Below the pieces are notes generated by a model, which worked only from the letters and a program-made list of their open reading frames with translations, had not been told where the DNA came from and did no database searches. 64,000 nucleotides of DNA, taken from positions 1-64,000 of the IMG/VR virus record IMGVR_UViG_3300029319_000004; one strand, 5' to 3'. The stretch comes from a virus. This document shows positions 1 to 53,400 of this stretch, in pieces (the stretch's first letter is position 1; the number at the start of each line of letters is the position of its first letter). Both the position numbers and the translations under genes were made by a program.

Positions 1-63
1 ACTGAAATCGCCAAGATCTTGTAATCATTAGGAAAACAAAAAACTTTCCCAAAACGCCAAAGT

Positions 64-79
64 TGGCACGCGACTTGCA
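64..79 (+). promoter_or_regulatory. sigma54 (-24/-12) promoter
   Basis: TGGCACG-CGAC-TTGCA matches the consensus TGGCACG-N4-TTGCW; GG(65-66) and GC(77-78) are exactly 10 nt apart; it lies ~40 nt upstream of the ATG at 121. Confidence 0.8.
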
Positions 80-120
80 ATATATATAGGGTGCAAGTCA
101 ACAACCCTGGAGAACCCAAC

Positions 121-972
121 ATGACGAACCTGCTTACCACCATCGCCGCCACCGCCATCATCCTCGACAAGTCCCAGCAGATGGAGCTAGTCGCCTTCGC
201 CACCTCGCCTCAGTGTAGCGACGACATCCGCGACGAGGCCCGCCGCCGCCTCGTCTCTTCCAACATTCGCTTGGCCCACAAGGTCGCCAAGAAGCATGTC
301 CGCACAGGCGTTGACTTCAACGACCTTCTCGCCTGCGCCACCGAGGGCATTCTCATCGCCATCGACAAGTTCGATGCCACCAAGCAGGCCAGCTTCACGA
401 CCTACGCTCGGATGTGGATGCGCGCCAAGTGTCAGGAGCATGTCCAGGCCAACGCCGGTACGCTCCACTGTGGCTCCCGCACTGCCAAGAAGCTGTGGTC
501 CTCTCTTCAGAAGGCCCGTAAGGTCATCGGCCAGGACGCCTCGCCAGAGGCCATCGCCGCTCACCTCGACCTCGACGTTGATGACGTCGCAGCCTGCCTG
601 CGTACCATGTCTTCTCGCGGTGTCAGCATCGACAAGCCTATCGGTGACGAGTCAGGAGCCACCATCGGTTCCATCATCCCTGATGGCGCTCTGCGCCAAG
701 ATGTCGCCATGGAGCGTACCCAGAACAGCGAGGCCATCCTTGAGGCCCTGACGGGCTTTGTGGACGGGCTCAAGCCCAACCACGCCGCCATCCTGCGCGG
801 CCGCATCATCAATGAGCTTCTCGGTGAGGAGCAGCAGTGCGCTAAGTCCTTTGGCGTGACCAAGCAGCGCGTTGGTCAGATTGAAAAGCAGCTTCGCACG
901 AAGTTGGCTGATCACTTCACCCGCTCCTTTGGTGCCGATGGTGTTAAGAGCATGATCCGCGCATCCTTCTAA
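121..972 (+). CDS. sigma70-family RNA polymerase sigma factor (RpoH/RpoD-like regions 2-4)
   Basis: Region 2 LVSSNIRLAHKVAK...EGILIAIDKFDATKQASFTTYARMW, region 3 SIDKPIGD, region 4 FGVTKQRVGQIEK; GGAG RBS at 109-112 favours ATG 121 over GTG 91. Confidence 0.9.
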   Translation: MTNLLTTIAATAIILDKSQQMELVAFATSPQCSDDIRDEARRRLVSSNIRLAHKVAKKHVRTGVDFNDLLACATEGILIAIDKFDATKQASFTTYARMWMRAKCQEHVQANAGTLHCGSRTAKKLWSSLQKARKVIGQDASPEAIAAHLDLDVDDVAACLRTMSSRGVSIDKPIGDESGATIGSIIPDGALRQDVAMERTQNSEAILEALTGFVDGLKPNHAAILRGRIINELLGEEQQCAKSFGVTKQRVGQIEKQLRTKLADHFTRSFGADGVKSMIRASF

Positions 973-973
973 G

Positions 974-1234
974 ATGGGCGAGGACACAAAGAAAATGCAT
1001 GTAGGAGACGTCCTGACCCTTACAGGCAAGACCAAGCATGGAAAGAACAGAGTGAGAGAACAGGGGGCTCTGTGGGTAGTCTCAGAGCTTCACGTGGCCC
1101 AACGTCACGGTGTCCATCCAGAGGGCACACCGCTTGCACTTCTCAGAGCGATTGACAACGACAAGCACTGGCGATGGATACGCCAGACAGACGACCTTAA
1201 CTTCATGGTCGAGGAGACAAAAAATAATGAGTAA
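974..1234 (+). CDS. hypothetical phage protein (small, beta-rich)
   Basis: Starts 1 nt after the sigma stop and shares its GC-rich codon usage. Confidence 0.65.
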   Translation: MGEDTKKMHVGDVLTLTGKTKHGKNRVREQGALWVVSELHVAQRHGVHPEGTPLALLRAIDNDKHWRWIRQTDDLNFMVEETKNNE

Positions 1235-1481
1235 AGATAGACTCAGCGCCATTGTGAGCGCCCTTCTAGGCCCTGCACCCCAAAAGGTAGAGGAAGTCGA
1301 GGCTACATGGTTTCTATGCGTTCCTGACGGCTCTGGAGGTGTTCAGCGTTATGACACCCCAAACCTTCAGCAGGTAGAGATCACCGCCCGACAATGGCTG
1401 GACACTGGCTGGCCTGTCTGGGTCGAGGATGACCAGGGCCGACACCTGCACCTAGCAGACAAGCCGAGGGAGCTTAACTAA
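1227..1481 (+). CDS. hypothetical protein
   Basis: ATG 1227 with GAGGAG RBS, overlapping the upstream stop; stop/start coupled to 1481. Confidence 0.65.
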   Translation: MSKDRLSAIVSALLGPAPQKVEEVEATWFLCVPDGSGGVQRYDTPNLQQVEITARQWLDTGWPVWVEDDQGRHLHLADKPRELN

Positions 1482-1681
1482 TGGACGTCAAAAAGGGATA
1501 CGGTCACAGCGACCCCTATGTGACCCTGTACCGCGTCCATTGGGTCGAGGCTAATGAAGAACAAAAATCTCATATCAAAGGCCCTAAAGCTGCCTTCAAG
1601 CATATGGAGAAGCTATTAGCCAGAGGTATTCCATCATGGATGACCCCTGTGCCATGGGAAGAAGATGACCTGCCCTTCTAG
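1481..1681 (+). CDS. hypothetical protein
   Basis: TAATG coupling with the previous gene. Confidence 0.65.
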   Translation: MDVKKGYGHSDPYVTLYRVHWVEANEEQKSHIKGPKAAFKHMEKLLARGIPSWMTPVPWEEDDLPF

Positions 1682-2010
1682 CCTGGGTGTATTTTGCTCA
1701 CCCAGTATTATGGTCCATTCAGGTCAGGGTTGGTACAAGGTATATTTATGCACCCTACCCCCTGCCATAAGGTGTGGTGGTAAACGTGTGCTAAAATACG
1801 TAACAAATATAGTACCCTAGCTACCCCTGCCCTAAAGTCTACCCTTTATTTTTATGCATTGGTGATTATGCATAGCCAAGACAAAGCACAGATTAGACAA
1901 AGTATAGACTTTATTTACTCAAATCCGTGCCTATAGTCACTTAAGAGCACATTCAAAACGCTAACGATTCCGCCTACTTAGTTTAGGTTTCGCTTAGGGG
2001 AGACAGAGAC

Positions 2011-8024: not shown

Positions 8025-9920
8025 ATGAGAAAGGCGATTATAGCTTGTTTGATGATGTTATCTGCGTGCAACTCGTGCTCAGAAGCGTTCATGAGCGAGC
8101 CGCCTGCCTACAATCCTGATGTTCCACAAGCTATAAATGATGTAGAAAGTCTAGAAGATGAAGACGCAAAAGAAGAAGTTGTTGACCCCTCTTCTGTATA
8201 TCCATTTCCAAACAATGAGTGCGTTCAGTGTCAGTGGTATTTTTGCCCACCACTAGATTCAGTTTGGCAAAAACAAATATGTATTGATCGATGTGAAGAC
8301 CCGCCAGTTATTTTATATGAGGGCACATGTGAACAATATTTACAGTGTGATCCACAGCAATATCTTTTAGAGCAGGTAGATTGTACAACAGAAGATGGAT
8401 ATCCTGGCACTCAAAACAAAGTTTGTAACAAGGGACAAATTCAGTATACTGACTGTGTAACTGACTGCGAAGAGGAGTCATGTAATTACATAGATGATGA
8501 TTGTGATGGTGAAATAGATGAGGGGCAACTGAATGAATGTAACGAGTGTGGAATCGTTCCGCCGGAACAGTGTAATGGTATTGATGATGACTGCAATGGT
8601 TTTACAGACGAAGACTTAATACAGCCTTGCTATACAGCTTGTGGAGCAGGATTTGAAACATGCTCGGATGGAAATTGGATATCTTGTACTGCTCCTCCAG
8701 AGTTAGAAGAGATATGTGATGGCCTGGATAATGATTGTGATGGTCAAATAGATGAGGATCTTGAGTGTGTATGCACAATACAGGACGTTGGTGTCTTGTT
8801 CCCTTGCGATGAAGATCCTCTTTTATGCGGCCAGGGATATAAAACTTGTCAGTGCATTGATGACACATGCACATCTTTTACTATGTCAGATTGCTTTGCT
8901 TTGTGTTATTGGCTGCCTGATAACAATCAGGTTTGTGATCCTCTTGTGGGAATGCCACTAGAACAAGAAAAATGTAATAACCATGACGATAACTGTAATC
9001 AAGAAATAGATGAAGATCTGTTTGCTTCGTGTTATACAGGACCTGAAGGCACATTGATGGTTGGGATATGTGAGCCTGGCTTGATGACATGTGATGCTGG
9101 CACCTGGGGTAGTTATGAAGAGGAGCAATTTATTCCATTTTACTGTGCTGGTGAAGTCGTACCACAAGAAGAAATTTGCAATGGCATCGATGATGACTGC
9201 GATGGTATTATTGACTGGGGCGAAGAAATGAAAGATACCGATGTTCTTTTTATCGTCGATTGGTCCGGATCCATGAATGATGAAATTGATGCAGTAATGA
9301 TCGCACTTAATCAATTTGCTCAAGATTTTAGTGACGAAGAAGTTATTAAGTGGGGTTTGATTCGTGGACCGGCAGCAATACCTCCTGATTACGATGACGA
9401 AAGATTAGAGTTTTATCAAGAACTAGTAGGGTTCAGCGACTTTCTTAGTTCAATGTCAAATTTAAATTCTGATTCTCCGTCAATGAATACATCTATGGAA
9501 ATGCTTTTAGATGCAATATATTTGTCTGTTAGTAACATTACATCTAATCTTTTTGCAGCCATAGCAGATTTTGAATGGCTAGGAATAGTTAGTCCAAATA
9601 TAAAAGTTGTAGATTCAGAGCCTTCATTAGATAATTTTACAGTGAATTGGAGGCCTGGAGCTGATAGGATAATAATTGTTTTTAGCGACGAACCTCCACA
9701 AAGCTATCTTGTTCCAGAACTGACTGTTGAAGATGTTAAAGGTGCTGTTTCTGGAACTCCTCAGTTAAAACTATTTACATTTTCTAAATCTAATCATAAA
9801 TCAAAGTGGGAAGAGATATCTATTGCTGGCAATGGCGAGTGGTACAAACTTACTAACAATCCTACTGAGATGTATGCTAGCTTAATAAGCATACTTGATG
9901 GCATATGTAAGGAAGAATAA
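8025..9920 (+). CDS. lipoprotein with five CxxxDDDCDGxxDE (MopE-type metal-binding) repeats and C-terminal vWA domain
   Basis: Lipobox LSA-C15; repeats such as EICDGLDNDCDGQIDE; MIDAS motif DVLFIVDWSGSM. Confidence 0.8.
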   Translation: MRKAIIACLMMLSACNSCSEAFMSEPPAYNPDVPQAINDVESLEDEDAKEEVVDPSSVYPFPNNECVQCQWYFCPPLDSVWQKQICIDRCEDPPVILYEGTCEQYLQCDPQQYLLEQVDCTTEDGYPGTQNKVCNKGQIQYTDCVTDCEEESCNYIDDDCDGEIDEGQLNECNECGIVPPEQCNGIDDDCNGFTDEDLIQPCYTACGAGFETCSDGNWISCTAPPELEEICDGLDNDCDGQIDEDLECVCTIQDVGVLFPCDEDPLLCGQGYKTCQCIDDTCTSFTMSDCFALCYWLPDNNQVCDPLVGMPLEQEKCNNHDDNCNQEIDEDLFASCYTGPEGTLMVGICEPGLMTCDAGTWGSYEEEQFIPFYCAGEVVPQEEICNGIDDDCDGIIDWGEEMKDTDVLFIVDWSGSMNDEIDAVMIALNQFAQDFSDEEVIKWGLIRGPAAIPPDYDDERLEFYQELVGFSDFLSSMSNLNSDSPSMNTSMEMLLDAIYLSVSNITSNLFAAIADFEWLGIVSPNIKVVDSEPSLDNFTVNWRPGADRIIIVFSDEPPQSYLVPELTVEDVKGAVSGTPQLKLFTFSKSNHKSKWEEISIAGNGEWYKLTNNPTEMYASLISILDGICKEE

Positions 9921-10413: not shown

Positions 10414-10896
10414 ATGAAGTTAATAATTGAGAACTGGCGTCGGTTTGTCAACGAGAACAAAGAAGAGGATGATAAACCATCTAGCAAAGACATTGAAAAT
10501 GCAATCAATGACAAGCTGGATGCTGAAGGTGGCGCTGCAGGTTTAGATCCTTTAGTTGCTGCGGCAAAAAAAATCGATCCAGAAGTTACAGAAGATGAAG
10601 TTAAGGAAATGCTGGATGCTATGTCCAACGTTGCCCAGCATAAAGAGGGCGACTACATTGACGAGGATGGATTGCAAGAGGCAGTTTCTATCTACCTAGA
10701 AGCAAAACAAGGCATACTTGAAGAGAAAGAAGGAAAAAAAGATGCTTGCTATCACAAGGTAAAAGCAAGATATACGAAAAAAAAAGACGGTAAAAAAGGC
10801 AAGTGGCCGTCAGCGTATGCATCTGGAGCTTTAGTTAAATGCAGAAAAGTTGGCGCAGCCAACTGGGGTGAAGGCGGAAAAAAGAAAAACAAATGA
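10414..10896 (+). CDS. leader-bearing protein with basic Cys-containing C-terminal module
   Basis: MKLIIENWRRFVNE; KKDACYHKVKARY...WPSAYASGALVKCRK. Confidence 0.65.
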   Translation: MKLIIENWRRFVNENKEEDDKPSSKDIENAINDKLDAEGGAAGLDPLVAAAKKIDPEVTEDEVKEMLDAMSNVAQHKEGDYIDEDGLQEAVSIYLEAKQGILEEKEGKKDACYHKVKARYTKKKDGKKGKWPSAYASGALVKCRKVGAANWGEGGKKKNK

Positions 10897-11642
10897 ATGA
10901 GGCAGATCCAAAAAAAGGAACTGGTAAGAAACCGAAAGGTTCTGGTCGACGTTTGTACACTGATGAGAATCCAAAAGATACAGTCAGCGTAAAATTTTCA
11001 ACCGTTCAAGATATAAAAGATACTCTGTCGAAACAGTCTTTTAAGTCTAAATCTCACAAGCGCCAATCACAAATAATAAATTTAATACACCAAAGAGTTA
11101 GGGTCGCTAAAGGAAGAACAAAAGACCCTGTTAAGAAAAAAAGACTTGCAGCTGCTTTTAAATATATTAGCAAAAGGAAAGAAGCAAGCAAGAGGAAAAC
11201 ACAAAGAATGAAAAACGAATCTTTATATTTAGAAAAAATTATATTAGAAGAACTAGAAAACATTCTTGATGAAAGATGTCAAAAGGGATATAAAACACAC
11301 CCCAAACGTAAGACTAAAAAAATGTTCGGGAGAACATACAGAAACTGCGTTAAAGCAGAGGGTGTCGAAGAAGATGATATTCTAGACGAAGAATTAGAAG
11401 AAGATCTTAATAAGTGGTTTAGACAAAACAAAGGAACAGGCTGGGTAGACTGCAATACTTGTCGAAAAGACAAGAAAACAGGTCGTAAAAAATGCAGCCC
11501 TTGTGGTCGTAAAAAACGCTCTGGTGGAAAAAGAAAAAGATATCCCGCGTGTCGTCCAACACCAGCTGCTTGTGGAAAAAGAGGTAAGTGGGGCAAAAAA
11601 TCTAAAGCTGAAAAAAGGCGAAAAAAGAAGAGGAAGCAGTAA
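10893..11642 (+). CDS. highly basic multi-module phage protein
   Basis: K/R-rich modules separated by acidic L-x-E linkers; WVDCNTC...CGR...YPACRP. Confidence 0.65.
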   Translation: MNEADPKKGTGKKPKGSGRRLYTDENPKDTVSVKFSTVQDIKDTLSKQSFKSKSHKRQSQIINLIHQRVRVAKGRTKDPVKKKRLAAAFKYISKRKEASKRKTQRMKNESLYLEKIILEELENILDERCQKGYKTHPKRKTKKMFGRTYRNCVKAEGVEEDDILDEELEEDLNKWFRQNKGTGWVDCNTCRKDKKTGRKKCSPCGRKKRSGGKRKRYPACRPTPAACGKRGKWGKKSKAEKRRKKKRKQ

Positions 11643-12643
11643 TGAAAATTACAAAATTTGAATTAGAAAAAATTATTAAAGAAGAAATTCAAGATTTGCA
11701 AGAAATTGATTTTTTAAAGAAAATTTTTGGAAAGTCTAAAGATACAAATGATACCGATGATGATTTTGGCGCCGAAGAAAAACAAACTAAAAAAATGTTA
11801 ACTCCGCCTCAAGCAGGACCGGTTAAGCTAAAGTACCCAATCGACTATTGTCGTAAATTAAGCAGAGATGCGCTAGAAGGCGATACCAAACATCCACAAT
11901 ATGCAAAATTTATGAAACGATGTCAAGAATTATCGCAAAATCGCGATCCAGATTTTATTGCGCGTCTTCAAGGTGAAGAAACCGCAGAATGGGCGCCTGG
12001 CTCATCAATGCCTTTTGGAGAGTTTCAGCGACAACATGGATCCTTGGAACAATTCAGTAGCAAACCGGTAAAAGCTGTAGAGCATGTGCTTGATATGGAA
12101 TTCGAAGGAGTAGCTGGCTATAAAGACAGTGCAGCACGATACGATGAATATATAAGTGGAGAATCTTCTTTTCGAAGAGATAAGGGCACAAGTATAAAGT
12201 CTAGTCGCTTCGCTGCTGATAATCTTTCTCTTCCTGGCGGAGGTTATAGTCAGCAGGCTCTCGATCAATATGGCGCCATGCAAGAAAAAATTACAAAATC
12301 ACAATTAAAACAAATTATTTTAGAAGAGTTAGACTCAACGCTAACTGAAATAAATGAAGAGCAAGCTTATTACGAGATGCTAGCTGAAGGTGAAACTATT
12401 GAAGAAGCTATGTATCGAGGCCGCAAAGTTAAACTAAACAAACCAATGCGTGGTGACGTTAAAAAATCTAAAGTTTATGTTAAAAACGCAAAAGGCAACG
12501 TTGTCAAGGTTAATTTTGGAGATAAAAAAATGAAGATTAAAAAGTCAAATCCAAAGCGACGCAAGTCATTCAGAGCTAGGCACAACTGCAAAAACCCCGG
12601 ACCTAAATGGAAAGCAAGATACTGGTCTTGCAAGGCATGGTAA
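11642..12643 (+). CDS. leader-bearing protein with basic C-terminal domain
   Basis: MKITKFELEKIIKEEI; internal KITKSQLKQIILEEL; C-terminal RRKSFRARHNC...ARYWSCKAW. Confidence 0.65.
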   Translation: MKITKFELEKIIKEEIQDLQEIDFLKKIFGKSKDTNDTDDDFGAEEKQTKKMLTPPQAGPVKLKYPIDYCRKLSRDALEGDTKHPQYAKFMKRCQELSQNRDPDFIARLQGEETAEWAPGSSMPFGEFQRQHGSLEQFSSKPVKAVEHVLDMEFEGVAGYKDSAARYDEYISGESSFRRDKGTSIKSSRFAADNLSLPGGGYSQQALDQYGAMQEKITKSQLKQIILEELDSTLTEINEEQAYYEMLAEGETIEEAMYRGRKVKLNKPMRGDVKKSKVYVKNAKGNVVKVNFGDKKMKIKKSNPKRRKSFRARHNCKNPGPKWKARYWSCKAW

Positions 12644-12647
12644 AATT

Positions 12648-12902
12648 ATGAAAGAACTATTTGAAAATTTTAGAAAATTTATAAATGAAAAAAAATCTGT
12701 CAAACACGATTGAAGTACTCATGGCCATCGTCGGTCCGACGAGACAAAAGAAATTGGAGAAGTTATCAATCATTCGCTAACTGAAAGTGGCAAGATTGAA
12801 TTTTACGAAGTAAAGTTTGGAGATGTTACTGAGGTTTTGGCAGCAGAAGATTTTGTTTCTACAAAAGAACAAACACATGAACATCTAGCAAGAGAGATAT
12901 AA
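12648..12902 (+). CDS. candidate selenoprotein (84 aa, in-frame UGA at codon 22) with packaging leader
   Basis: MKELFENFRKFINEKKSVKHD-(TGA 12711-12713)-STHGHRRSDETKEIGEVINHSLTESGKIEFYEVKFGDVTEVLAAEDFVSTKEQTHEHLAREI-TAA; the frame stays open to 1 nt before the next ATG; SECIS-like hairpin follows the UGA. Confidence 0.65.
12728..12742 (+). promoter_or_regulatory. bacterial SECIS-like hairpin
   Basis: Stem TCGTC(G)/(C)GACGA with a GGUC(C) apical sequence starting 20 nt after the UGA. Confidence 0.6.
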
Positions 12903-12903
12903 A

Positions 12904-13329
12904 ATGAAAAAACTATTTGAGAATTTTAGAAATTTTATTAATGAGGTTGAAAAATTAGTCTGCCCTCCTGCAACACAAGATGTAGGCATTAATACAAAAA
13001 ATAGAAACTCAACTAGGCAGAATCATATGTATGGGCCTCTTAACGTTAACGAGCCAGGTGATTATTGGCAAAAGCTCGCACAAAAGTGGGAGACAACAGA
13101 AGAAGCAGCTAGAAAGTCAACCTGTGGTGTTTGTGTTGCATTCGATATATCACCTAGAATGGATGAATGCATGCCTGGGCCTGTTTCAGATGAGTCTGGT
13201 CGCTTAGGTTATTGTTGGATGCATCATTTTAAGTGTCACTCTGCTAGGTCCTGTGATACTTGGGCTATGGGTGGTCCGATTAAAGACGACAAAAAATCTC
13301 AACAATGGCAAGAAAAATCATCTATTTAA
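12904..13329 (+). CDS. leader-bearing Cys/His-rich (probably Zn-binding) protein
   Basis: MKKLFENFRNFINE; CGVC...YCWMHHFKCHSARSC. Confidence 0.65.
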   Translation: MKKLFENFRNFINEVEKLVCPPATQDVGINTKNRNSTRQNHMYGPLNVNEPGDYWQKLAQKWETTEEAARKSTCGVCVAFDISPRMDECMPGPVSDESGRLGYCWMHHFKCHSARSCDTWAMGGPIKDDKKSQQWQEKSSI

Positions 13330-13340
13330 AAGGTAAACTT

Positions 13341-14048
13341 ATGCATTTAATATTTGAAAACTGGAGAAGATATCTTTTAACAGAGGATCGTCTTAAGCTT
13401 AAACCTGGCCCTAAAGGGTGGGATCTGTATGGCAAGTTAGTTGCAGACGCTTATATAGCTGCTCCAAAATATGACGAAAAAGCAGCTGAAAAGTTTAAAA
13501 AGTTAATTCCTTTTATCGATAACATGTACGAAAAAATACAAAGAGGAAAACAGGGAGTCAAAATAGAATTTGTAGAAGACGATCCTTATCCTGAAGGTGA
13601 TGAGCAGCTTCGTAGAGAAGTTGCCAGAACTGGAGTGTTAAAAGTTTTTAAAGGCGGCACACAACATCCTATTTTTAGCGTTAAGGATGATGACGATGAT
13701 CCTAATGAGCCAGACTCAAATGAAAAATTCAGAGCTATTCATGATGTAATGGCTCATATACAACATGCTGGGCATCAAGGAACTGGCTTTGATATGAAAG
13801 GCGAAATACAAGCTTATAATTCGCATTTACACACAATACCTCCTGATGCAGCTGGCGCGCTCTTTACCGAAGTTATTGGTCAGGCTGCAGTGTTTTTAAA
13901 TTATGGAGAATTTCCAGAACAAAAAATAGCTTTATTGCCTGGTTTTGATTATTTTAATCTTGGTGTAGTCGATGGTTACGATATTGTAAATAAACAATTA
14001 GTTAAAAAAGGCGAGGAGGCTGCAGATCAAGATGAAGGTTCTATTTGA
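13341..14048 (+). CDS. leader-bearing hypothetical protein
   Basis: MHLIFENWRRYLLTE; FRAIHDVMAH...GEIQAYNSH motif. Confidence 0.6.
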   Translation: MHLIFENWRRYLLTEDRLKLKPGPKGWDLYGKLVADAYIAAPKYDEKAAEKFKKLIPFIDNMYEKIQRGKQGVKIEFVEDDPYPEGDEQLRREVARTGVLKVFKGGTQHPIFSVKDDDDDPNEPDSNEKFRAIHDVMAHIQHAGHQGTGFDMKGEIQAYNSHLHTIPPDAAGALFTEVIGQAAVFLNYGEFPEQKIALLPGFDYFNLGVVDGYDIVNKQLVKKGEEAADQDEGSI

Positions 14049-14415
14049 AAACTGGCGAAAATATATAAATGAGGCATGTTGTCCTGATAAAATTCCCAAC
14101 TCAAACGTTGATTTGCGCCTTATGCCTTCAAAAATACATGGCAAGGGAATATTTGCAGGAGAAAAAATTCTAAAAGGGACGGACTTGGGTGTGTCACACA
14201 TTAGAAGAAAAGGAATATGGACGATACCAGATTTAGGTCGATGGCACAACCATTCTGATAATCCAAGCTGTCATAATACTCTAGATGGGTCGATGAAAGA
14301 TAAAACATACACTAGAAACCTTATAGCCTCTAGAGATATTGAACCTGGAGAGGAAATTACGGTAAACTATAGACTACAGCCAGACCTTGAACAACCAGGA
14401 GCATGGGCTATATGA
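14032..14415 (+). CDS. SET-domain protein-lysine methyltransferase with leader
   Basis: HGKGIFA, GRWHNHSDNPSC and ASRDIEPGEEITVNY are the SET signature motifs; MKVLFENWRKYINE leader. Confidence 0.85.
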   Translation: MKVLFENWRKYINEACCPDKIPNSNVDLRLMPSKIHGKGIFAGEKILKGTDLGVSHIRRKGIWTIPDLGRWHNHSDNPSCHNTLDGSMKDKTYTRNLIASRDIEPGEEITVNYRLQPDLEQPGAWAI

Positions 14416-15416
14416 AATTATTAATTGAAAACTGGAAGCGCTACTTAGAGGAGGAAGCTAGTCCTGCAGCACAAGGTCAAAAAAATATGACCTTAGTAGT
14501 GCCAAAATTTAGAATTTCTGAACAGTGGGGAACTCCGGGCTCTCAAGATAGAAAAATTATAGAGTTGTTTACTTCAAAAATAAAAGGCTCAACTTTAAAA
14601 GAGAAAATATCTTCTCTAAATGGTTTTGTATCAGAATGTGACGCCGCATGTGCTGCAACAAAAGAGGTATCAGAAATATTAGCAAATTTAGTTTTTTTAG
14701 ATTCTTTAGCATCCGTCATATACGATTTTAATCCAATGACAGGCGGCTTCCTATTCGAATCTTTAATAGCTGCGCTTCTTGGCGGAGAGGCTAAACAGGT
14801 TGAAACTGGCTCCGGAGCAGATCAGGATGTTACAGATGTTATTGACCATAATGGCCGTCCTTTAAGTTTAAAATTCTTTTTTGAAGGAGGATCACAATAT
14901 ATTCATGGGTCTTTTTGGAATTTAAAAAGAGATATAAAAAGACATAATCAACCCATGGTTTATTTAATTGGTTTAAAAAATAGAAATCACAAGGATAGAA
15001 AAGTTTTAGCTATTGATTTTTATGAATTTACAGTTGGCGATAATAAAGAAGGAATACGTGGAGATTATGATGTTGGTGACATAGGCTATGGAAATGGCTT
15101 GCCAATATCTTATATTATTGGTGCAAAGCCTAGGGGTCGTCCAAGACGAGGCGAGGAAGGAAAACCTAGACAAAGATTTAAAAAAACTAGTTATTATTTA
15201 GGCACTTTAGACTTTGGAGATAGAGATAAGATGATTGAAGTTGCGCAATCATACGCAAATAGATTAGGATCTTTAATGCTAGAAATTTATCAACAAATAG
15301 ACGAATTAAGCAAAAATGTCAATACATATTTCTTAGAATCTCCAGACGCAAAAGACGCTGCTATGGCAGCTCGTGCAAATGCTGAGACTCTTAAAAAAGA
15401 TGCAGAGGAACTGTAA
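14412..15416 (+). CDS. leader-bearing protein, possible PD-(D/E)XK fold
   Basis: MKLLIENWKRYLEE; GFLFE...DVTDVID...PLSLK. Confidence 0.45.
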   Translation: MKLLIENWKRYLEEEASPAAQGQKNMTLVVPKFRISEQWGTPGSQDRKIIELFTSKIKGSTLKEKISSLNGFVSECDAACAATKEVSEILANLVFLDSLASVIYDFNPMTGGFLFESLIAALLGGEAKQVETGSGADQDVTDVIDHNGRPLSLKFFFEGGSQYIHGSFWNLKRDIKRHNQPMVYLIGLKNRNHKDRKVLAIDFYEFTVGDNKEGIRGDYDVGDIGYGNGLPISYIIGAKPRGRPRRGEEGKPRQRFKKTSYYLGTLDFGDRDKMIEVAQSYANRLGSLMLEIYQQIDELSKNVNTYFLESPDAKDAAMAARANAETLKKDAEEL

Positions 15417-15419
15417 TTA

Positions 15420-16949
15420 ATGAAGCTTTTATTCGAAAACTGGAGGAGGTTCATAAATGAAGACGAGGATGATGAAGAAAACGTTCTTGATCTTTCAAAA
15501 GAGCTTGATTCTGGGTTTTGTGATTTTAATCCTCTGATTAATCAATATGCACAATATTCTCCTGATAGTCTAGCTGAAATGTTAATATTTGTTGTCGCTA
15601 CTCAGCAAATGCGCTGGTATGATGTTGTTCCAAAGTTTCCTATAATGATGCAGCATATACGCGATAATGATATGTTGTTGAACCCAAGAGATGCCAAAGT
15701 TAATGAAAAAGGAAAAACTGTTTATAATATTCCAAAAGCTTTTGCACAACTAACTTTAGGCTTTCGAAAGAATGCAATTCAATCGATATGGCAAAGTCGA
15801 GAAATGATATTTTCTACAATGTCTCCTCTTTTTGCTAAGTACAACGCAGCTAGTGGTAATTCTCTAGAGAAAGAAGAGGCGGTGTTTCAAATTTATTTAG
15901 AATTAATCAAGCTTCCAGGTCTTGGTTTACCGAAGGCTGCTTTTGCATCGCAGCTGTTAATTGGACGACTAGGCTGCATTGATTCTATTAATTTAAACCT
16001 TTATAAAGGATTGGATCCTGAAGGCAAACTTATTACCTATGACAGCAAGGGCCGACCAACTTTTAAAACACCAGGCGTATCTAAAAAAGCAGGGATTGTA
16101 CAAGTTACAAAAGGTGGTGTAAAATTAGCTAAAGAATATGTTCAATTTTTAAAACAAATTGCCAAGCTAACAGGATCTACAGAAGCTAGTATTTCTAGAA
16201 AATTATGGGATTCTTGGGTTGAATTAGTGGCTCTAAAAATTAATAAAAAAGGTGATATTAATGTTATAATGCCGGGTGGAGAAAAATTTACCGTTCCCAA
16301 TGACTATTCAAAAAATATTAAAGGAGCAGAAACAAATCCCTCTGCTGCGTTTCGTAAACAATACATAGGAAAAATTACACCACAAGATGTGTCTAGGCAG
16401 CATTTTCCAAAACAAATGTATGAGGGGCTACGTAAGTGGTCTAATTATGTTGATAGATTATTAAATGAAAATGTTGAAATAGCGCCCCGGGGATCCCTAG
16501 CTGGTACGGGAGGAGATATTGGCACAGCAGTCCCTGGATCGATTGCATACATAATGCAAAGTTTTAAAAAATATAATAATGATGCAGAACCCGACGACAA
16601 GAGAGTTGCAAAAGCAGTAATGCATAGGAATGGAAAAATTCTTCTTTTAGTAAATGATAGGGGCTACGATTTACCGGGTGGACATTTAAAAAGGGGAGAG
16701 CACCCCATTGCTGGTTTAAAAAGAGAAGTTGAAGAAGAAACAGGGTTAACAATTCCAACTCCCGAAATAAAGGATTTATTTTTCATAAAAGGAAACAAAA
16801 GATTTTATTCGTGTCCTTTTATGAGAGATGACATTGTTTTAAGCGATGAGCATTCCTCATATGAATTTGTCGATATTGATGATTTAGACTCAATAGAGAT
16901 ATCAAAAAGTTTCAGACAGGCGATAAAAAAAGCTTTAGGTGTTGAATAA
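15420..16949 (+). CDS. leader-bearing HhH-glycosylase-like + NUDIX hydrolase fusion
   Basis: HhH-like LIKLPGLGLPKA...GCID; NUDIX box GGHLKRGEHPIAGLKREVEEETGL. Confidence 0.7.
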   Translation: MKLLFENWRRFINEDEDDEENVLDLSKELDSGFCDFNPLINQYAQYSPDSLAEMLIFVVATQQMRWYDVVPKFPIMMQHIRDNDMLLNPRDAKVNEKGKTVYNIPKAFAQLTLGFRKNAIQSIWQSREMIFSTMSPLFAKYNAASGNSLEKEEAVFQIYLELIKLPGLGLPKAAFASQLLIGRLGCIDSINLNLYKGLDPEGKLITYDSKGRPTFKTPGVSKKAGIVQVTKGGVKLAKEYVQFLKQIAKLTGSTEASISRKLWDSWVELVALKINKKGDINVIMPGGEKFTVPNDYSKNIKGAETNPSAAFRKQYIGKITPQDVSRQHFPKQMYEGLRKWSNYVDRLLNENVEIAPRGSLAGTGGDIGTAVPGSIAYIMQSFKKYNNDAEPDDKRVAKAVMHRNGKILLLVNDRGYDLPGGHLKRGEHPIAGLKREVEEETGLTIPTPEIKDLFFIKGNKRFYSCPFMRDDIVLSDEHSSYEFVDIDDLDSIEISKSFRQAIKKALGVE

Positions 16950-30844: not shown

Positions 30845-31193
30845 GGGGGTGAACTGGTTTCGACTGAGTATTGAAAATATAATGTGCAAGGCTGTGTGAG
30901 TGCGCACAGTAAAAACACTCAACTTTATAAACGCCAACGATAACGTTAGTTTTGATTACGCCCTAGCGGCTTAATCATGGGGAATGATAACGCCTTATTA
31001 ACCAAAGATAGTCCCGCCGACGGTGCCCTTCGGGGAGAGGTGGTCAAGTGGTTTTTCCAAGTTAGGCCCATAGGACAAACTTGGTGGTGCGCGGTGCTTG
31101 AGTTTGTCAGAGTCCAAATAACTGACTAACCTTGTGAATGACATTGTGTTAGATATATTTAGGACCCGGGTTCGACTCCCGGCACCTCCACCA
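30845..31193 (+). ncRNA. ssrA: tmRNA
   Basis: 5' GGGGGTG pairs with 3' CACCTCC-A-CCA; 5' GGTTTCGAC; T-arm CCGGG-TTCGACT-CCCGG; tag ANDNVSFDYALAA* at 30933-30974. Confidence 0.95.
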
Positions 31194-32081: not shown

Positions 32082-32161
32082 GGGACAGTATCTCCTCGCT
32101 CTTATAAAGCGTAGAAAGAGTAGTCGGTTACACGTGGGTTCAAACCCCACCTGTCCCACCA
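32082..32161 (+). tRNA. atypical D-armless tRNA-like RNA, anticodon UAU (Ile?)
   Basis: Acceptor GGGACAG/CTGTCCC-A-CCA; T-arm GTGGG-TTCAAAC-CCCAC; arm (T)CGCT-CTTATAA-AGCG(T); only 7 nt between acceptor and anticodon stems; 21-nt extra region. Confidence 0.7.
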
Positions 32162-47486: not shown

Positions 47487-50400
47487 ATGTCTTTAACTGC
47501 AGCAAAACAAAATGAAGCAAAGTCATCGTTACTGGATATAAAAAAAATATTAGGACTTTTAATTCAGTCTGATTCTGAAATAGAAAAATTATCTGCGCTA
47601 ACAAGCATTGGAGTAGATTTTGATAGTTCAGGATATAATACCATCAAAGAAGATACTGATTCTCCTGATTCTACTTTCGAAAATGTAGCCTCCTCTCTGC
47701 TTTCTTTAATGACAGAGTCATCAAATCTTTTAGCAGCGCTTAACGATGTTAATCTAGAAGAGAAAGAAAGTTTAAGTCTTTTTACGGAAGGTGCATCAAC
47801 TTTAGCTGATATCATAGACAATATTGATCCAAAAGTATATCAAGATCCTAAATTATGGTTTAAGGGGTTTCCAACTGATTGGATTGGCAATGTGCAGCCA
47901 TCTTCATATGAAAGCCTAGTTAAGCAATTTTGCAGAAGGATGCAGTATGATGTCGAAGACGCTGGAGGTGTATCTAATTTTGATCCTAAGACTTTCTTAT
48001 TTCAAGCTTTATCTAATTCTTTAAAAAAATACTCATCTCTATTTGGAAAAAGTTATTTTAACAGAAGACCAATAGAAGCGCCTCCTGGCCCAATTGATAT
48101 CGCTCAAATGATGCCAGTTGATGAAAATTTAGAAACAAAATTTCTTCCAAAAAACATCAATGCGACTCACTATATTGGCGCCCTAGAGCCTGCAGTTAGT
48201 TCAGCAGGCGCAAGAGAAGAAGATTATTTACCTGTTAGATTGGCGCCAGGTGCGTATCCAACACCCTTAGCTAGTGGCTGGGATGATGAGGGATATAAAC
48301 TATTAAATAAACAAGGAAAATTAGTCAATCAGTCTCACCCTCGTGAAAATGGAATAGTTATTCCTATAGGAACACAAGTTTTTGTAACTGAAGTTGTTCT
48401 TGGTCTTTCTGGCGTGTGGGTAGGATTTATTCCTTTAGATTTAAGCGGTCAGCAAAAGTCTGCTTATGAAGCTGCAACTAAAAAAAATCAAAACATACTC
48501 TACACTCATGTAGATTATCTTAGAAGGTTTGCATCTTCAGATCCTATGGCAGTGTTATCTCAAACACTAATTCCTTATGATGGTCAAGATCCTAGAGCTA
48601 GTACCATGCAAGGTGCTTCTCTTATAAAACCTGATTCAAATCTAAACTGGACAACTTTGGGCTATGGCGATGTTCACTTAGCCTATTATAACTTTTTAGA
48701 ACACAATAATAAATATCCAATTTATTTAGACGCAGATGATAATCCATCTGTTAGCGAACCTGATAATCTTGAAGCTATAGGTGCAATGTTTTCTAGGCCT
48801 CGTGGAAAATTTTCGGAAGGTTATTATTATTTTGCAACTCTTGATACAACTCGTCCAACAGTTGGAGAACTTTTAGAAAGCATTTCTCCTGGGCCTGGTG
48901 TAGAAAATTCAAACGAAATGAGAGAGGCGAAAGAAGAAGCAGCAACTAATGCAATTAGTGAATTAACGCCTCAGGCAATAAAAATTATTTTAGAATATGC
49001 TGGAAAACAAATTCCAGACGACCTTCTCAGTTTTGAATCATACTATATTGCTCCTGTAGCTCAAAACTTATCAACGCGTGGTGGAGAAAACAATGCAAGA
49101 ATTCTTTTTGCGATGCCAGCACAAGTAGTCGACGCGCTTCCGAATTCGAAAAACATATATTATGATGATTTTAATTCTGATCTAAAAGACACTTTTAACG
49201 GTAAAGATTACACATTTACAATAAAAATATCTGATATTCCAAAAATATCTGAAAAACTAGTTCAGTTTTTAGAAAATATTAAATCAAAATTAGATACGTT
49301 TACTCAAGAGGGTGGGGCTATAAAAAATCCTAATGGAATTGATTATAATATCGAATCTCAAATAACAAGGATTGAAGAGTTCCCCATAATATTAAATGAT
49401 TTTTTGCAAAGGCAAAGCACAGCTGGAGAAAGAGATGTTTTGTCTGAGCATCTTTCTTTAGGGACAAACATTGAGGGAGAAGCATTAATACAGTTTGGAA
49501 TAAGAGACAATGGACAAGTTGGAGGGCAAGTAAGACAGACAGTATCTTTTGTTCTTTATAGTCCAGATCCAGATAGACTAGTACAGTCGAACAGGAAAGA
49601 GTTTGTTACCTTAGATCCTTATTTAATTGATGAAGAAAAAAATGGTTTAGCAGTGCCAACTAGGACTGGAGTTGTACTAACGAAGGCGCTACCTTGGTTG
49701 AGAGATAAATTTCTTGATGCTGAAGGTGCAAGGACTCTTCACTATTTCATGTCTCATAGAAACTTAATTGAGTTTGATTCTGAAACAGGCGCAGACTTGA
49801 GACTAAATGAGTGGGTTAAGTTTTTGCAGGCATATACTGTTCCTCCGTTATTAATAAAGTTATCAAAGGAAAAATCTACATCACCAGAGCAAATAGACTG
49901 TAAAAAGCTAGTTGATGATTTATTGAATTCTCCCAGCGTTGTTGGGCCAAAAGATAAAAAGTTAAGAGAGCTTGTAGAAAAAAGATGCGGTAAAGAGTAT
50001 CTTGAAGCGGTTCTGCAAGATACAGATGCTAGTGATTCTGAATCATCAGAAAAAGCCTTAGAATTTAAACAAAAAGCCTCTCAAAACCCTGGCTCCTTTG
50101 GCAATTCTAAAGCAGCTGCTCATTTAACTTTATTATATAGACAGTTTCTTCATAAGCTTGACCCACAGGGTTTAATTGCTTTATTGATGGCATGTCTGCA
50201 GGAACAATTAGGTATTCCGCTAACAGCAGAAGCGCTTTGTGAGGTTGCAATAGAAAAACTTATTGAAGCAGCTGGGGTTGAAGAAATTAAAAAAACAATT
50301 GTAAAAGCAGTGCCTGAACTTGCTTTGTTTTTTCCCGAGCTTCGTGTCGCTGAAAGGCTTGGCGACATTAGTGTAATGAACCCTGATCCCTATGATTATG

Positions 50401-53400
50401 ACAACTCATCTGAAAATTTCGCTGCTTCTTTCGGCGAAATAATGTACCCCAGCGAAAGTGAATATGAGGATACGCTAGGAGAGGATGGAACTAGTATTTT
50501 TCAAAAAGAACATATTATAAATCAAAATATATATACTAATGCTCCAATTGCTGCAGGCGTAAAGCTTTCAAATCCTAAGTTTCCCCAAGACAAAATAATT
50601 TTTATTGCGAAATTAGAAAGAGTTGGGTATCCTATACCTCTTGTTCCAACTTCAAAAACTAATTCTATTTCTGGAGGGGGACTTTCATATCTTGCAGAAA
50701 AACAACAAATATATCTCGATAAAGGATACAGCGAGTATGAAGCAAGAGCCGCTATGGTACGAGATGGAGATTTAGAAGTTCATGAAGAGTTTTTAAATAG
50801 AGACATTGAAATTAATCCATACGAAGCAGCTCAAAATAAGCTTCAAGGAGCAGAGAGCGCCTTTTCTGACATAAGTGATGCATTTTACAATGCAGGTCAG
50901 CGAATGAATAATCTTCCGCCAGGCACTGACGTGCTTTTAGGAACAGGAGGATCTGAATTATTAAACGCAGTTGGAGCAACTGCTGAAAGTGCAGAGCAGT
51001 TCTTGGGATATTTAAAAAGAATTATTGACCTTCAACAACTTTGTGAATTATTGGTTGGTCCAATACTTCAAGCACCAGGATTGTTATTTTCGGATCCTAA
51101 CAGTTTTGTAAGTAATTGGGAAAATTGGGCGGCTAATTTAAAAGATTCACTAATCAGGCAGTTTAAGCCACCAGATTTTAATATTCCTAAGCTAGGGTTG
51201 CCAGATGAGTTGTCAACTGACGATTTGATTGGTGATTATGCTACAAAACTTGAACAACTAATTGTTGGTGCGATTGGAATGATTTTAGGAGAAATTTTAA
51301 ATCTTCTACTAAAAGAGCTTTTAGAGAAATGCTTTAATAATCCTCAAGACAATGACTCAACAGGACCTCGGCCTGTTGGATCTGAGCCATCAATCCCACT
51401 TCCAATCATAGATGACTTAAGCACTCGTTTGCCATCGGGAGCAACACGACCAGATTGGCCAGGTTGGTGGGCTGATATGATTGGCATATTGTCTAACCAG
51501 CAGTTATGTCGATTGTTAAAATTTAACGCAACCAGAGAAGAAATAGATATTGTTCTTGATAGAACAGATAAAAAATGGCCAGAATGCTGGGAAGCCGGAA
51601 TGGACAACTCTGCAGACGTTCAGATTACGTTTAAGCAGGCTGGTGATCGAATGCGTGCTACTGGAGATTTAGATATATGCGACGCAATTCAAGCATTAAC
51701 TCCTATTTTAGTTACTGCATGTGATGCAAAATATGATTATGATGCTCGTTGTGCTGAATTGCAAATGAACGGCCTAACCAAAGAAGAGTGTGATGAGCAA
51801 ATAAGACAAGAAATAGAGGATTTAAAAAACAAATTAAAATTGTTTTCTAGTAAATTATTTCCTGGGGAAGATGACACTTTTGCAGGGGTACCCGAACCTT
51901 GCGGTCCAGATGGTTATTTTGTTTTACCGCCCATGATGGAAAATACAATGGGTAGGATAACGGACAACTATTTGCGTGCAGTAAAAAGATCTGTTTTGGA
52001 TGATTTAACAACTATGGAGTTTTTCTCAGTTCCTCCTAAGGCATATGAAGCTATTAATGATCCCGAAATTCTACAGTCAACTTACAACCTAGCATTGAAA
52101 GCTACTTCTCAGGGAGCTTCGAAAGAAATAAATGCAGTAATGCCTATTCAAAAGCACTCTTTTTTGACCCAGATGGGTCTCTTCGAGCCGCGTGATTATG
52201 AGAATCTTGATGTAAATGAAAGCCCTACGCACCTGCCATTAACCTATTCGACTGTTGGTTACAATCTTTATCTTTTTAAAATTGGCGCAAATCAAAGCGA
52301 TATTACATCTGAGGAAGTAGAAACCATAAGTGCTGATGATTGGTTTGGACATCCTCCAGAGGGATTTATAAATTCTAAAACATATCAAGACACACTCCGC
52401 TCAGGAGATGGAACTTTAGTTCTTCCAGCTTGTTCATGGAATTCTACAATACCAAATCCTCATTCTAAAAATAACATACCTCAACTATCACAAGTTACTG
52501 GTGCCACAAACTTTTTATCTGCATTAAGTATTTTTAATATGTCTCTCAATAATCAAAATACTAATATTAGTGATGCATCTGAGCTTAACGTTGTTCTTAA
52601 CAATATTGAAGATCAAGTAGAAATATTACAAGATATTTTTGAAAATTCATTTTTAGGTTCGGAGATGTTTAATGTTTTTATAGAAGATGAACTATCAGAG
52701 GAACTCTTTGGTCAAAGAGTTTACAATCTTACAAAAGAATCAGAAGAATTTATAAAAGCTAATCGCCTTGGGTTTATTGAACTTAAAACAACTGATGATT
52801 TAAATTATGACTTGCCAGCCTCACTTGGAGGAATTGGTGCAGCCGGAACTAAAAAATATTGGGGATACTGGGAGCCTGGAGCAAGTTATATGGGAGATGC
52901 TACGAATGAGTATTCCGGAGCAAACTATTTCTCATCTAACGTTGGTCTCTTCAAAACTCTTACTGAAGAAGAAAAAGAGCACATGCTTAAATTAAGATCT
53001 AATGCTTTTGATGATCGATTAGCTGCCAATCTAAAGTTATTAAATAACTTTGCGCCAGGAATTTTTCCTGTTACTAGGTTTGAAGAAATAAAAAACTTTT
53101 TGGTTCAATACGCGCCAGATGATATTTATTCAGTTCTAAAAGAAATTCTTCCTGGTCCACCAACGGAAGCACAATCTAAAAAATCTGCGGCCCTTCTTTT
53201 GACTCACACTGAGTTTGAACTTATTCAAAAAAGAAAAAGATCTATAAGTCCAGAAATTAATGTCGATGCAGGCATGAGAATGCTTAATGAAAGCATGCTT
53301 GATATGATTACTTTAGATACTCCAATGAGTGACTTATTTGCCATATCTGAAGACAGAGAGCAAAAATTTAAAAAATTTCTTGGCCGGTTGCTTGCCGACC

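What the first reader, a model, noticed from the sequence alone, without database searches (positions are those of the whole stretch)
12648..12902. Candidate phage selenoprotein: in-frame UGA plus SECIS, carrying a virion-packaging leader
Seen: the ATG lies 4 nt after the upstream stop, followed by leader A and then KHD-UGA-STHGH. The same frame stays open for 62 more codons and ends 1 nt before the next ATG, with no in-frame ATG after the UGA. A GC-rich hairpin UCGUC-GGUCC-GACGA starts its loop 20 nt after the UGA and forces codons atypical for this AT-rich genome (CGT CGG TCC GAC). Established: bacterial SECIS elements lie immediately 3' of the UGA with a G(U)-containing apical loop; E. coli fdhF has a GGUC loop at about the same distance. 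Inference: the phage uses host SelA/B/C/D to put Sec in an H-D-U-x-x-H metal/redox site of a packaged protein. Phage selenoproteins are not a textbook category.
Basis: partly seen in the sequence, partly recalled or inferred. Interest (0 to 1): 0.92.

Follow-up and report, generated by a model that had tools for sequence, protein, structure and literature searches.

The report
Phage capsid-cargo gene encoding selenocysteine
A small gene of this uncultured marine T4-like phage has an internal UGA "stop" that every close relative keeps, always followed by a co-evolving RNA hairpin, where distant relatives (including cultured cyanophages) have cysteine; this is the standard signature of selenocysteine, which I found reported for no virus of bacteria.

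Summary
ORF 12648-12902 (+) has a leader, an in-frame TGA at codon 22, 62 further open codons and a GC-rich hairpin.

- **Conserved TGA.** I tabulated 50 distinct homologous DNA versions from metagenomes and IMG/VR. 45 have TGA at this codon, 4 have TGT/TGC, 1 has CGA and none has TGG. The "Trp" in database homologues comes from gene calls made under code 4.
- **Hairpin.** Every TGA version has a hairpin whose loop starts 21-24 nt from the U of UGA. Stems differ between subfamilies. All 7 pairs show compensatory changes: 85% of cells pair, against 40-51% in slid registers. The Cys versions lack the hairpin.
- **Translated downstream frame.** The frame after the UGA is under purifying selection (pN/pS 0.08-0.5).
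- **No global recoding.** TGA ends 43 of 187 genes in this phage.
- **Host dependence.** The phage has no tRNA-Sec, selA, selB or selD, so it would need a Sec-competent host. The host is unidentified.

The leader looks like a T4-type capsid-targeting sequence, and a gp21-type protease is present. The protein's function is unknown; the model is a small SH3-like barrel with a His-rich site. Selenium incorporation is untested.

This scan has noted the same kind of gene, probably the same family, on other phage genomes.

The parts
12648..12902 (+). Complete selenoprotein ORF: 84 codons including UGA-22, plus the TAA stop
   Evidence: Homologues of 46-90% identity span the whole length. pN/pS is 0.08-0.5 downstream of the UGA.
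12648..12689 (+). N-terminal leader (14 codons) ending in I-N-E; putative T4-type capsid-targeting sequence and prohead-protease cleavage site
   Evidence: The same leader starts genes at 10414, 12904, 13341, 14032, 14412 and 15420. The gp21 cleavage motif is L/I-x-E (PMC9026906). A gp21-type protease lies at G000:103844-104290.
12711..12713 (+). In-frame UGA, proposed selenocysteine codon inside the motif H-x-U-x-T-H
   Evidence: TGA in 45 of 50 distinct homologous DNA versions, TGT/TGC in 4, CGA in 1, TGG in none. Among 99 cluster representatives the column holds only C (50) or 'W' (24).
12728..12742 (+). bSECIS-like hairpin: 5-6 bp stem with a GGUCC (or GUC) apical loop
   Evidence: A hairpin stands at the same distance in all 45 TGA versions and in none of the 4 TGY versions. 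All 7 pairs show compensatory changes.
10414..16949 (+). Context: array of leader-bearing genes with unrelated payloads, including a SET-domain and a NUDIX protein; the selenoprotein gene lies inside it
   Evidence: Three of these genes end in TGA, so UGA is an ordinary stop here.

Best explanation
The gene encodes a small selenoprotein.

Decoding (inferred from comparative data): during infection, host SelB carrying Sec-tRNA(Sec) binds the hairpin that lies 15-30 nt after the UGA in the phage mRNA. It delivers selenocysteine at codon 22, so the ribosome goes on to make the full 84-residue protein. The phage supplies only the mRNA signals, so the gene can work only in a host that decodes Sec.

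Packaging (inferred from sequence): the 14-residue leader resembles the T4 capsid-targeting sequence. It probably loads the protein into the prohead, where the phage's gp21-type protease removes it after I-N-E. That would leave about 70 residues with Sec eight residues from the new N-terminus.

Function (weakest step): the mature part is predicted to be a small SH3-like beta barrel. Sec (Cys in relatives) sits among invariant histidines at H20, H25, H42, H77 and H79. I read this as a metal-binding or redox centre carried in the capsid and possibly ejected into the next host.
For: 1. The UGA is conserved. 45 of 50 distinct DNA versions from different samples and several subfamilies have TGA at the HMM-anchored column, and none has TGG.
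2. Sec/Cys pairing holds. 4 DNA versions have TGT/TGC. Among 99 cluster representatives the column holds 50 Cys and 24 'W'; a further 35 gene calls start just after the site. All three 'W' proteins I checked translate only with TGA=W. Cys forms occur in cultured cyanomyophages such as P-SSM7 and S-RIM14.
3. The hairpin is conserved in structure, not sequence. Every TGA version has a 4-8 bp hairpin with its loop starting at nt 21-24. At least seven different stems occur, and the loops mostly begin with G. In one fixed register 85% of cells pair, against 40-51% when slid. The covariation score is 0.728 against 0.264 in shuffles (0 of 500 reach it), and all 7 pairs have changes on both sides. TGY versions pair in only 18% of cells there.
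4. The geometry matches E. coli fdhF: GGUC at nt 22-25 there, 23-26 here.
5. The downstream frame is under purifying selection, pN/pS 0.08-0.5 with pS up to 0.8.
6. UGA is otherwise a stop. 43 of 187 ORFs end in TGA, the genome is 94% coding under table 11, and no other site of this kind exists.
7. The phage has no tRNA-Sec or suppressor tRNA and no selA, selB or selD.
8. Leader: 7 genes share it, a PF03420 protease scores 117 bits, and gp21 cleaves after L/I-x-E while a 10-residue CTS suffices for packaging in T4 (PMC9026906).
Against: - There is no direct evidence of selenium in the protein, of translation, or of virion location.
- The host is unknown, so a Sec machinery in it is assumed. 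A tmRNA-tag scan gave no useful lead.
- No Rfam family matches the hairpin. Bacterial SECIS elements are poorly represented in Rfam, according to the preprint read.
- The stem in this window is short (5-6 bp) and lacks the bulged U that I recall as important for E. coli SelB.
- Three subfamilies carry their hairpin 1-3 nt off the main register.
- One close relative (L027) has CGA at the site.
- The structure model is of middling confidence (pLDDT 69). Fold matches are generic, at Z about 5, so the metal/redox reading rests only on the conserved His/Cys pattern.
Confidence: 0.85

Rival explanations
1. Programmed UGA readthrough without selenocysteine. The hairpin stimulates decoding of UGA by a near-cognate standard tRNA (for example Trp), giving a set ratio of a 21-residue leader peptide and the full protein.
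For: UGA followed by A is a leaky context in bacteria (from memory: the Q-beta A1 readthrough inserts Trp). The conserved UGA, hairpin and selected downstream frame would fit any recoding mechanism.
Against: The only sense codons at this column are Cys codons, apart from one CGA. No TGG occurs in 50 DNA versions, and there is no residue other than C or code-4 'W' in 99 representatives. The column lies in an invariant H-x-C/U-x-x-H motif, so the identity of the residue matters. The hairpin's position and G-first loop match SelB-type elements.
Confidence: 0.07
2. The hosts of these phages, or a suppressor tRNA, read UGA as a standard amino acid (code 4 or 25, or a tRNA-Cys with UCA anticodon). 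The TGA would then be an ordinary sense codon.
For: Public gene callers translated many homologues under code 4. Unusual tRNAs with UCA-type anticodons exist in some bacteria (PMC5389517).
Against: This phage ends 43 of 187 ORFs with TGA, including three leader genes next door, and has one recoded site in 180 kb. It carries no UCA-anticodon tRNA. A sense codon would not need a conserved, co-varying hairpin, and the TGY homologues lack that hairpin.
Confidence: 0.05
3. Broken gene or sequencing error. The TGA would be a recent nonsense mutation or assembly mistake in a gene that normally has Trp or Cys.
For: TGA is one base away from TGG and TGY. A first look at database homologues shows 'W' at this column.
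Against: 45 independent distinct assemblies from many samples share the TGA. The 'W' is TGA. The downstream frame has pN/pS 0.08-0.5 at near-saturated synonymous divergence.
Confidence: 0.01
4. Two separate products: a 21-residue leader peptide ending at the UGA, and an independently initiated downstream protein.
For: Gene callers annotate 50-55-residue downstream ORFs in relatives, starting at GTG or ATG near 'N-H-S-L-T-E'.
Against: Those calls would drop the invariant H-x-U-x-T-H-G segment and the first beta strand. This window has no in-frame ATG after the UGA. The region between the UGA and those starts is conserved at the protein level. In Cys relatives the same segment is continuous.
Confidence: 0.02

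Closest known systems
Bacterial selenoprotein genes with an in-ORF SECIS read by SelB (prototype E. coli fdhF)
   Same: In-frame UGA, a stem-loop immediately 3' inside the coding sequence, a G-first apical loop (GGUC here and in fdhF) at almost the same distance (nt 23-26 against 22-25), and Cys-containing homologues.
   Different: The gene is carried by a phage that has none of the Sec machinery. The stem is shorter and lacks the bulged U that I recall in fdhF. The protein family is new and is not an oxidoreductase of any known type.
Poxvirus selenoproteins (molluscum contagiosum GPx1 homologue, fowlpox GPx4 homologue; review PMC8310308)
   Same: A virus-encoded selenoprotein that depends on the host's Sec machinery. 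In fowlpox the SECIS also lies in the coding region.
   Different: Those are eukaryotic viruses with eukaryotic SECIS elements and genes captured from the host. Here the virus infects bacteria, the hairpin is of the bacterial type, and I retrieved the family only from phage records and unclassified metagenome contigs.
T4 internal proteins IPI, IPII, IPIII and Alt with their capsid-targeting sequence
   Same: A short N-terminal leader shared by unrelated small proteins, ending in L/I-x-E, in a phage with a gp21-type prohead protease (PMC9026906, PMC3012670).
   Different: The leader is 14 residues rather than 10. Packaging, cleavage and ejection are untested here. No T4 internal protein is known to contain Sec.
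Cys-form homologues in cultured cyanomyophages (P-SSM7 PSSM7_192; S-RIM14 LIS021110_173; PHROGs 22379, 11470 and the N-terminal part of 764)
   Same: The same domain with H-x-C-[AS]-x-[HK] ... H-[ST]-L ... H-x-H.
   Different: They have Cys (TGY) and no hairpin, and the domain is often embedded in longer proteins annotated 'cytidyltransferase' or 'hypothetical'. Their function is equally unknown.
Selenoprotein families found in ocean metagenomes by Sec/Cys plus SECIS criteria (GOS families GOS_A, GOS_B, GOS_C; PMC2398784)
   Same: The same kind of evidence and the same environment.
   Different: The sequences differ: GOS_A and GOS_B were read and GOS_C is described as Trx-like with UxxC; this family's motifs are absent from the held supplements. 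That paper does not mention phages.

Membership tests
Bacterial SelB/SECIS-dependent selenoprotein gene | In-frame UGA conserved at one codon among homologues | tested here: met
   45 of 50 distinct DNA versions have TGA at the HMM-anchored column.
Bacterial SelB/SECIS-dependent selenoprotein gene | Homologues with Cys at the same column | tested here: met
   TGT/TGC in 4 DNA versions; 50 Cys domains among 99 representatives; cyanophage proteins read directly.
Bacterial SelB/SECIS-dependent selenoprotein gene | Stem-loop immediately 3' of the UGA with guanosine in the apical loop | tested here: met
   Loop starts at nt 21-24 in all 45 TGA versions; loops are GUC, GGUC, GGA, GGG, GGU, GGC or CGUGA. 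fdhF comparison.
Bacterial SelB/SECIS-dependent selenoprotein gene | Structure kept by compensatory changes and absent from Cys homologues | tested here: met
   All 7 pairs have double changes; covariation 0.728 against 0.264 in shuffles, 0 of 500. TGY versions pair in 18% of cells.
Bacterial SelB/SECIS-dependent selenoprotein gene | Coding frame continues under selection after the UGA | tested here: met
   pN/pS 0.08-0.5 over 59 codons in 36 pairs.
Bacterial SelB/SECIS-dependent selenoprotein gene | selA, selB, selC and selD available in the translating cell | not testable with these tools
   The phage has none of them. The host is unidentified.
Bacterial SelB/SECIS-dependent selenoprotein gene | Selenium found in the protein | not testable with these tools
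   Needs 75Se labelling or mass spectrometry.
T4-type capsid-targeted internal protein (CTS cargo) | Short N-terminal leader shared by otherwise unrelated proteins | tested here: met
   Seven genes between 10414 and 15420 share it. Their payloads are unrelated (SET, NUDIX, none).
T4-type capsid-targeted internal protein (CTS cargo) | Leader ends in the gp21 cleavage motif L/I-x-E | tested here: met
   I-N-E at residues 12-14. Motif taken from PMC9026906.
T4-type capsid-targeted internal protein (CTS cargo) | gp21-type prohead protease in the genome | tested here: met
   PF03420, 117.6 bits, at G000:103844-104290.
T4-type capsid-targeted internal protein (CTS cargo) | Protein present and processed in virions | not testable with these tools
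   Needs virion proteomics.
Genome-wide UGA reassignment (codes 4 or 25) | UGA used in-frame throughout the genes and not as a stop | tested here: not met
   43 of 187 ORFs end in TGA; 94% coding under table 11; only one candidate site.
Rfam SECIS families | Covariance-model match | tested here: inconclusive
   No SECIS family up to E=10 in 12600-12950. Bacterial SECIS elements are poorly covered by Rfam, according to the preprint read.
SH3-like small beta barrel (KOW, Tudor, SH3) | Five-strand barrel superposable on solved members | tested here: inconclusive
   Best Z is 5.5 with rmsd 1.7-2.3 over 46-50 residues. Foldseek E-values are above 0.1. Model pLDDT is 69.

The most novel reading that the evidence does not exclude
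A widespread superfamily of capsid-packaged phage proteins exists in both Sec and Cys forms. The Sec forms would be the first natural selenoproteins encoded by viruses of bacteria. Because the phages carry only the UGA and SECIS, the gene would also mark their unknown hosts as selenocysteine-decoding bacteria. The selenium would sit in a His-rich metal or redox centre that is delivered into the next host cell.
Probability: 0.6. Interest if true: 0.88.

Novelty: new variant of a known kind. Interest (0 to 1): 0.82.

Why it matters
- **New carrier.** In the papers I could search, selenoprotein genes are described for cells and for two poxviruses, not for phages. Recent reviews and databases of prokaryotic selenoproteins do not mention phages.
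- **Viral dependence on a non-universal pathway.** A phage family with a bacterial-type SECIS would show that viruses of bacteria exploit the host's 21st-amino-acid machinery.
- **Host marker.** Only Sec-decoding bacteria could express the gene, which would give a sequence-readable constraint on host range for abundant uncultured marine T4-like and jumbo phages.
- **Annotation errors.** Public predictions of this family are truncated or read as Trp under code 4.
- **Natural test case.** The Sec/Cys split (Cys in cyanophages, Sec in uncultured relatives) lets one ask what selenium adds to a small His-rich domain of unknown function.
- **Testable.** If the leader works as in T4, the protein is packaged in the virion, so selenium could be sought by virion proteomics.

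Tried and rejected
- Megablast of the region against cultured phages found nothing. tblastn of the window protein gave only a weak P-SSM7 hit.
- Pfam found no family for the protein or its relatives.
- A first protein alignment suggested Trp at the site. I rejected this after reading the DNA.
- Rfam found no SECIS match.
- There is no tRNA-Sec in this phage or in five related phage records, and no selA, selB or selD.
- Host search failed. A degenerate scan for the phage's tmRNA tag in 185,579 genomes gave only one Treponema MAG, which I take as coincidence. The sigma-factor atlas look-up gave no host hint. psbA is absent.
- Foldseek and VIA-align gave only generic SH3/KOW/Tudor-like matches.
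- The tRNA-like gene at 32082-32161 was checked as a possible UGA decoder. Its anticodon loop reads UAU, so it is not one.
- The GOS_A and GOS_B sequences are unrelated, and GOS_C is described as a Trx-like UxxC protein.
- Look-ups of this scan's notes by sequence returned nothing.

Full report
**1. What is in the window**

The window is the first 64 kb of a complete 180,711-bp IMG/VR virus record with direct terminal repeats.

- Genes run almost all on the + strand. The genome is 94% coding under table 11, with stops TAA 110, TGA 43 and TAG 34.
- It is a distant T4-like myovirus. It has a baseplate wedge protein and PhoH. It also has a gp21-type prohead protease, PF03420 at 117.6 bits, whose nearest cultured relatives are about 50% identical.
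- It lies in an array of seven genes that start with the same leader. Three of them end in TGA, so UGA is a normal stop in this phage.

**2. The apparent refutation, and why it fails**

A protein search found 14 homologues, and the full-length ones show W at the TGA column. The DNA says otherwise.

- The closest homologue translates to its database sequence only with TGA=W.
- Reading three loci directly showed an in-frame TGA at the same codon in each.
- The short database proteins of 50-55 residues are gene calls that start downstream of that TGA.
- Two further distant 'W' representatives are also TGA. The nearest Cys representative translates under table 11 with TGT.

**3. Tabulation of the site**

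I gathered loci from JGI metagenomes and IMG/VR using the family and three subfamily alignments. I anchored the site with a profile HMM.

- Among 50 distinct DNA versions the codon is TGA in 45, TGT in 3, TGC in 1 and CGA in 1. It is never TGG.
- A profile search of 1.84 billion representatives gave 99 relatives. At this column they have Cys in 50 domains and 'W' in 24. A further 35 gene calls begin just after the site. No other residue occurs.
- Cys forms occur in 105 records of cultured cyanomyophages. In P-SSM7 and S-RIM14 I read H-D-C-[AS]-S-K-V directly.
- The TGA subfamilies have no match in cultured phages.

**4. The hairpin**

Every TGA version has a hairpin of 4-8 bp whose loop starts 21-24 nt from the U of UGA. 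The stems differ by subfamily:

| Stem (5' / 3') | Where |
|---|---|
| UCGUCG / CGACGA | this window and its close relatives |
| CCCC / GGGG | encoded peptide is HPVGAP instead of HRRSD |
| CGGAA / UUCCG | subfamily with GRK[AS]SD after the site (L033; L030 has GUCGGAA / UUCCGAC) |
| CUGUACAC / GUGUACGG | one distant locus (L041) |
| AAGCGGAA / UUCCGCUU | a large subfamily |
| ACUUGGGG / UCCCAAGU | a large subfamily |
| GGUGGGG / CCCUACC | one distant member (L088) |

- Within the AAGCGGAA subfamily, L051 carries two double substitutions that keep pairing while changing amino acids.
- Loops are GUC, GGUC, GGA, GGG, GGU, GGC or CGUGA.
- On an ungapped alignment of the 45 versions, one fixed 7-pair register gives 85% standard pairs. 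Registers slid by 1-3 nt give 40-51%. There are 83 cells with changes on both sides, against 32 in shuffles. The covariation score is 0.728 against 0.264 (0 of 500 shuffles reach it), and all seven pairs have compensatory changes.
- The unpaired cells come mainly from three subfamilies whose hairpin is shifted by 1-3 nt.
- The four TGY versions pair in 18% of cells in that register and have no hairpin there.
- E. coli fdhF, read from MG1655, has its GGUC loop at nt 22-25. The window has GGUC at nt 23-26.

**5. The downstream frame is translated**

Over the 59 codons after the UGA, 36 pairwise comparisons give pN/pS of 0.08-0.5, with synonymous differences of 0.24-0.82 per site. This excludes a pseudogene.

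Independent initiation downstream is unlikely:
- There is no in-frame ATG after the UGA.
- The invariant H-x-U-x-T-H-G segment and the first predicted strand lie between the UGA and the alternative starts.

**6. Not a changed genetic code**

- TGA ends 23% of the ORFs.
- Across both strands, 12711 is the only TGA with a start-bearing ORF upstream, an uncalled open frame downstream and a strong hairpin.
- The family is single-copy in this genome.
- ARAGORN finds only tRNA-Leu(UAA), Asn, Met and Arg(UCU) plus a tmRNA. The tRNA-Sec model finds nothing above its cut-off here or in five related phage records.
- selA, selB and selD are absent.

The phage would therefore depend on the host for Sec. 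That step is inference, because I could not identify the host.

One preprint reports that 135 complete Pelagibacter genomes lack selC, while Actinomarina has the full machinery. So Sec-competent abundant marine bacteria exist. I have no evidence linking this phage to any of them.

**7. Leader and protein**

- In T4, the first 10 residues of IPIII suffice to target proteins into the prohead. gp21 cleaves after L/I-x-E. The internal proteins are a diverse set sharing only that leader (PMC9026906; PMC3012670).
- Here the leader ends in I-N-E and the protease is present, so packaging and cleavage are plausible but unshown.
- Some relatives carry a second, longer leader type in front of the same domain.
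- AlphaFold2 on a 13-row alignment gives a five-strand barrel over residues 18-79, with pLDDT 69. Structural matches are generic SH3, KOW or Tudor barrels, at Z up to 5.5.
- Invariant or nearly invariant residues include H20, U22, T24, H25, G26, H42, H77 and H79. I read this as a metal or redox centre. That is the weakest part of the account.
- The Cys forms fall in PHROGs of unknown function and in the N-terminal part of a 'cytidyltransferase' PHROG.

**8. Comparison with what is known**

- *Mechanism.* This is an ordinary bacterial-type selenoprotein gene. All sequence-level defining features that I could test are met. The machinery and the selenium itself could not be tested.
- *What is new.* The carrier is a virus of bacteria, and the protein family is new.
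- *Literature.* Full-text searches found no phage-encoded selenoprotein. A 2021 review of viral recoding lists only two poxviruses. A 2026 review and a 2026 database of prokaryotic selenoproteins do not mention phages. The seven new GOS families do not include this one: GOS_A and GOS_B were read and are unrelated, and GOS_C is described as a Trx-like UxxC protein. The library lacks most subscription journals, so an earlier report cannot be excluded.
- *This scan.* Its own notes show the same kind of finding on many other phage genomes, including one with the same H-x-U-x-x-H motif. Those are unchecked AI notes and not independent evidence. I mention them because this is not the first sighting within the scan.

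**9. Verdict**

- Confidence is 0.85 that UGA-22 is decoded as selenocysteine through a SECIS/SelB mechanism.
- It is about 0.65 that the protein is a capsid-targeted cargo.
- It is about 0.4 that the site binds a metal or is redox-active.

Noticed in passing
window 30845-31193 (+): The phage carries a complete one-piece tmRNA gene (Rfam RF00023, 127 bits) with tag peptide ANDNVSFDYALAA. A degenerate scan for that tag in 185,579 genomes hit only one Treponema MAG.
   Followed up: partly
window 32082-32161 (+): tRNA-like gene that ARAGORN misses and Rfam's tRNA model scores at 34 bits. It has a perfect acceptor stem, a T arm and an encoded CCA, an anticodon-like loop CUUAUAA (UAU), and an odd arm order. 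It is not a UGA decoder.
   Followed up: partly
window 10414-16949 (+): Seven consecutive or near-consecutive genes share the 14-residue leader. Their payloads include a SET-domain protein (14032-14415) and a NUDIX protein (15420-16949). Genes at 10893 and 11642 have other N-termini.
   Followed up: partly
window 8025-9920 (+): A 631-residue protein with three MopE-type putative copper-binding motifs (PF11617, E 1e-16) and a weak VWA hit, just upstream of the leader array.
   Followed up: no
window 1-2000: The first 2 kb has 54% GC against about 37% elsewhere. It holds a sigma-70-family gene (91-972) whose nearest atlas clusters are phage sigma factors and sigma-32.
   Followed up: partly
L012, L041, L042 and database proteins P0002-P0011, P0025, P0029: Public gene predictions of this family are systematically wrong. 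On short contigs they are translated under code 4, so Sec appears as Trp. Elsewhere they are truncated to the part after the UGA.
   Followed up: yes
L027:1056-1058: One metagenome contig has CGA (Arg) at the Sec codon, though it is nearly identical to two contigs with TGA and keeps the hairpin. It may be a variant, an inactive copy or an error.
   Followed up: no
records of L054, L051 and L050 (G001-G003): Contigs carrying the 'G-H-T-U-L-T-H-V' subfamily are 83-202 kb yet estimated only 28-70% complete. Those phages would be about 300-kb jumbo phages, so the Sec family spans several phage size classes.
   Followed up: no
window 47487-58541 (+): A single 3684-residue ORF lies ahead of the baseplate wedge genes (58971-62617).
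   Followed up: no
L048:1501 onward: A Cys-form (TGC) homologue has a 6-bp GUCGUC/GACGAU hairpin about 38 nt after the Cys codon. The stem resembles this window's stem but sits at a different distance.
   Followed up: no
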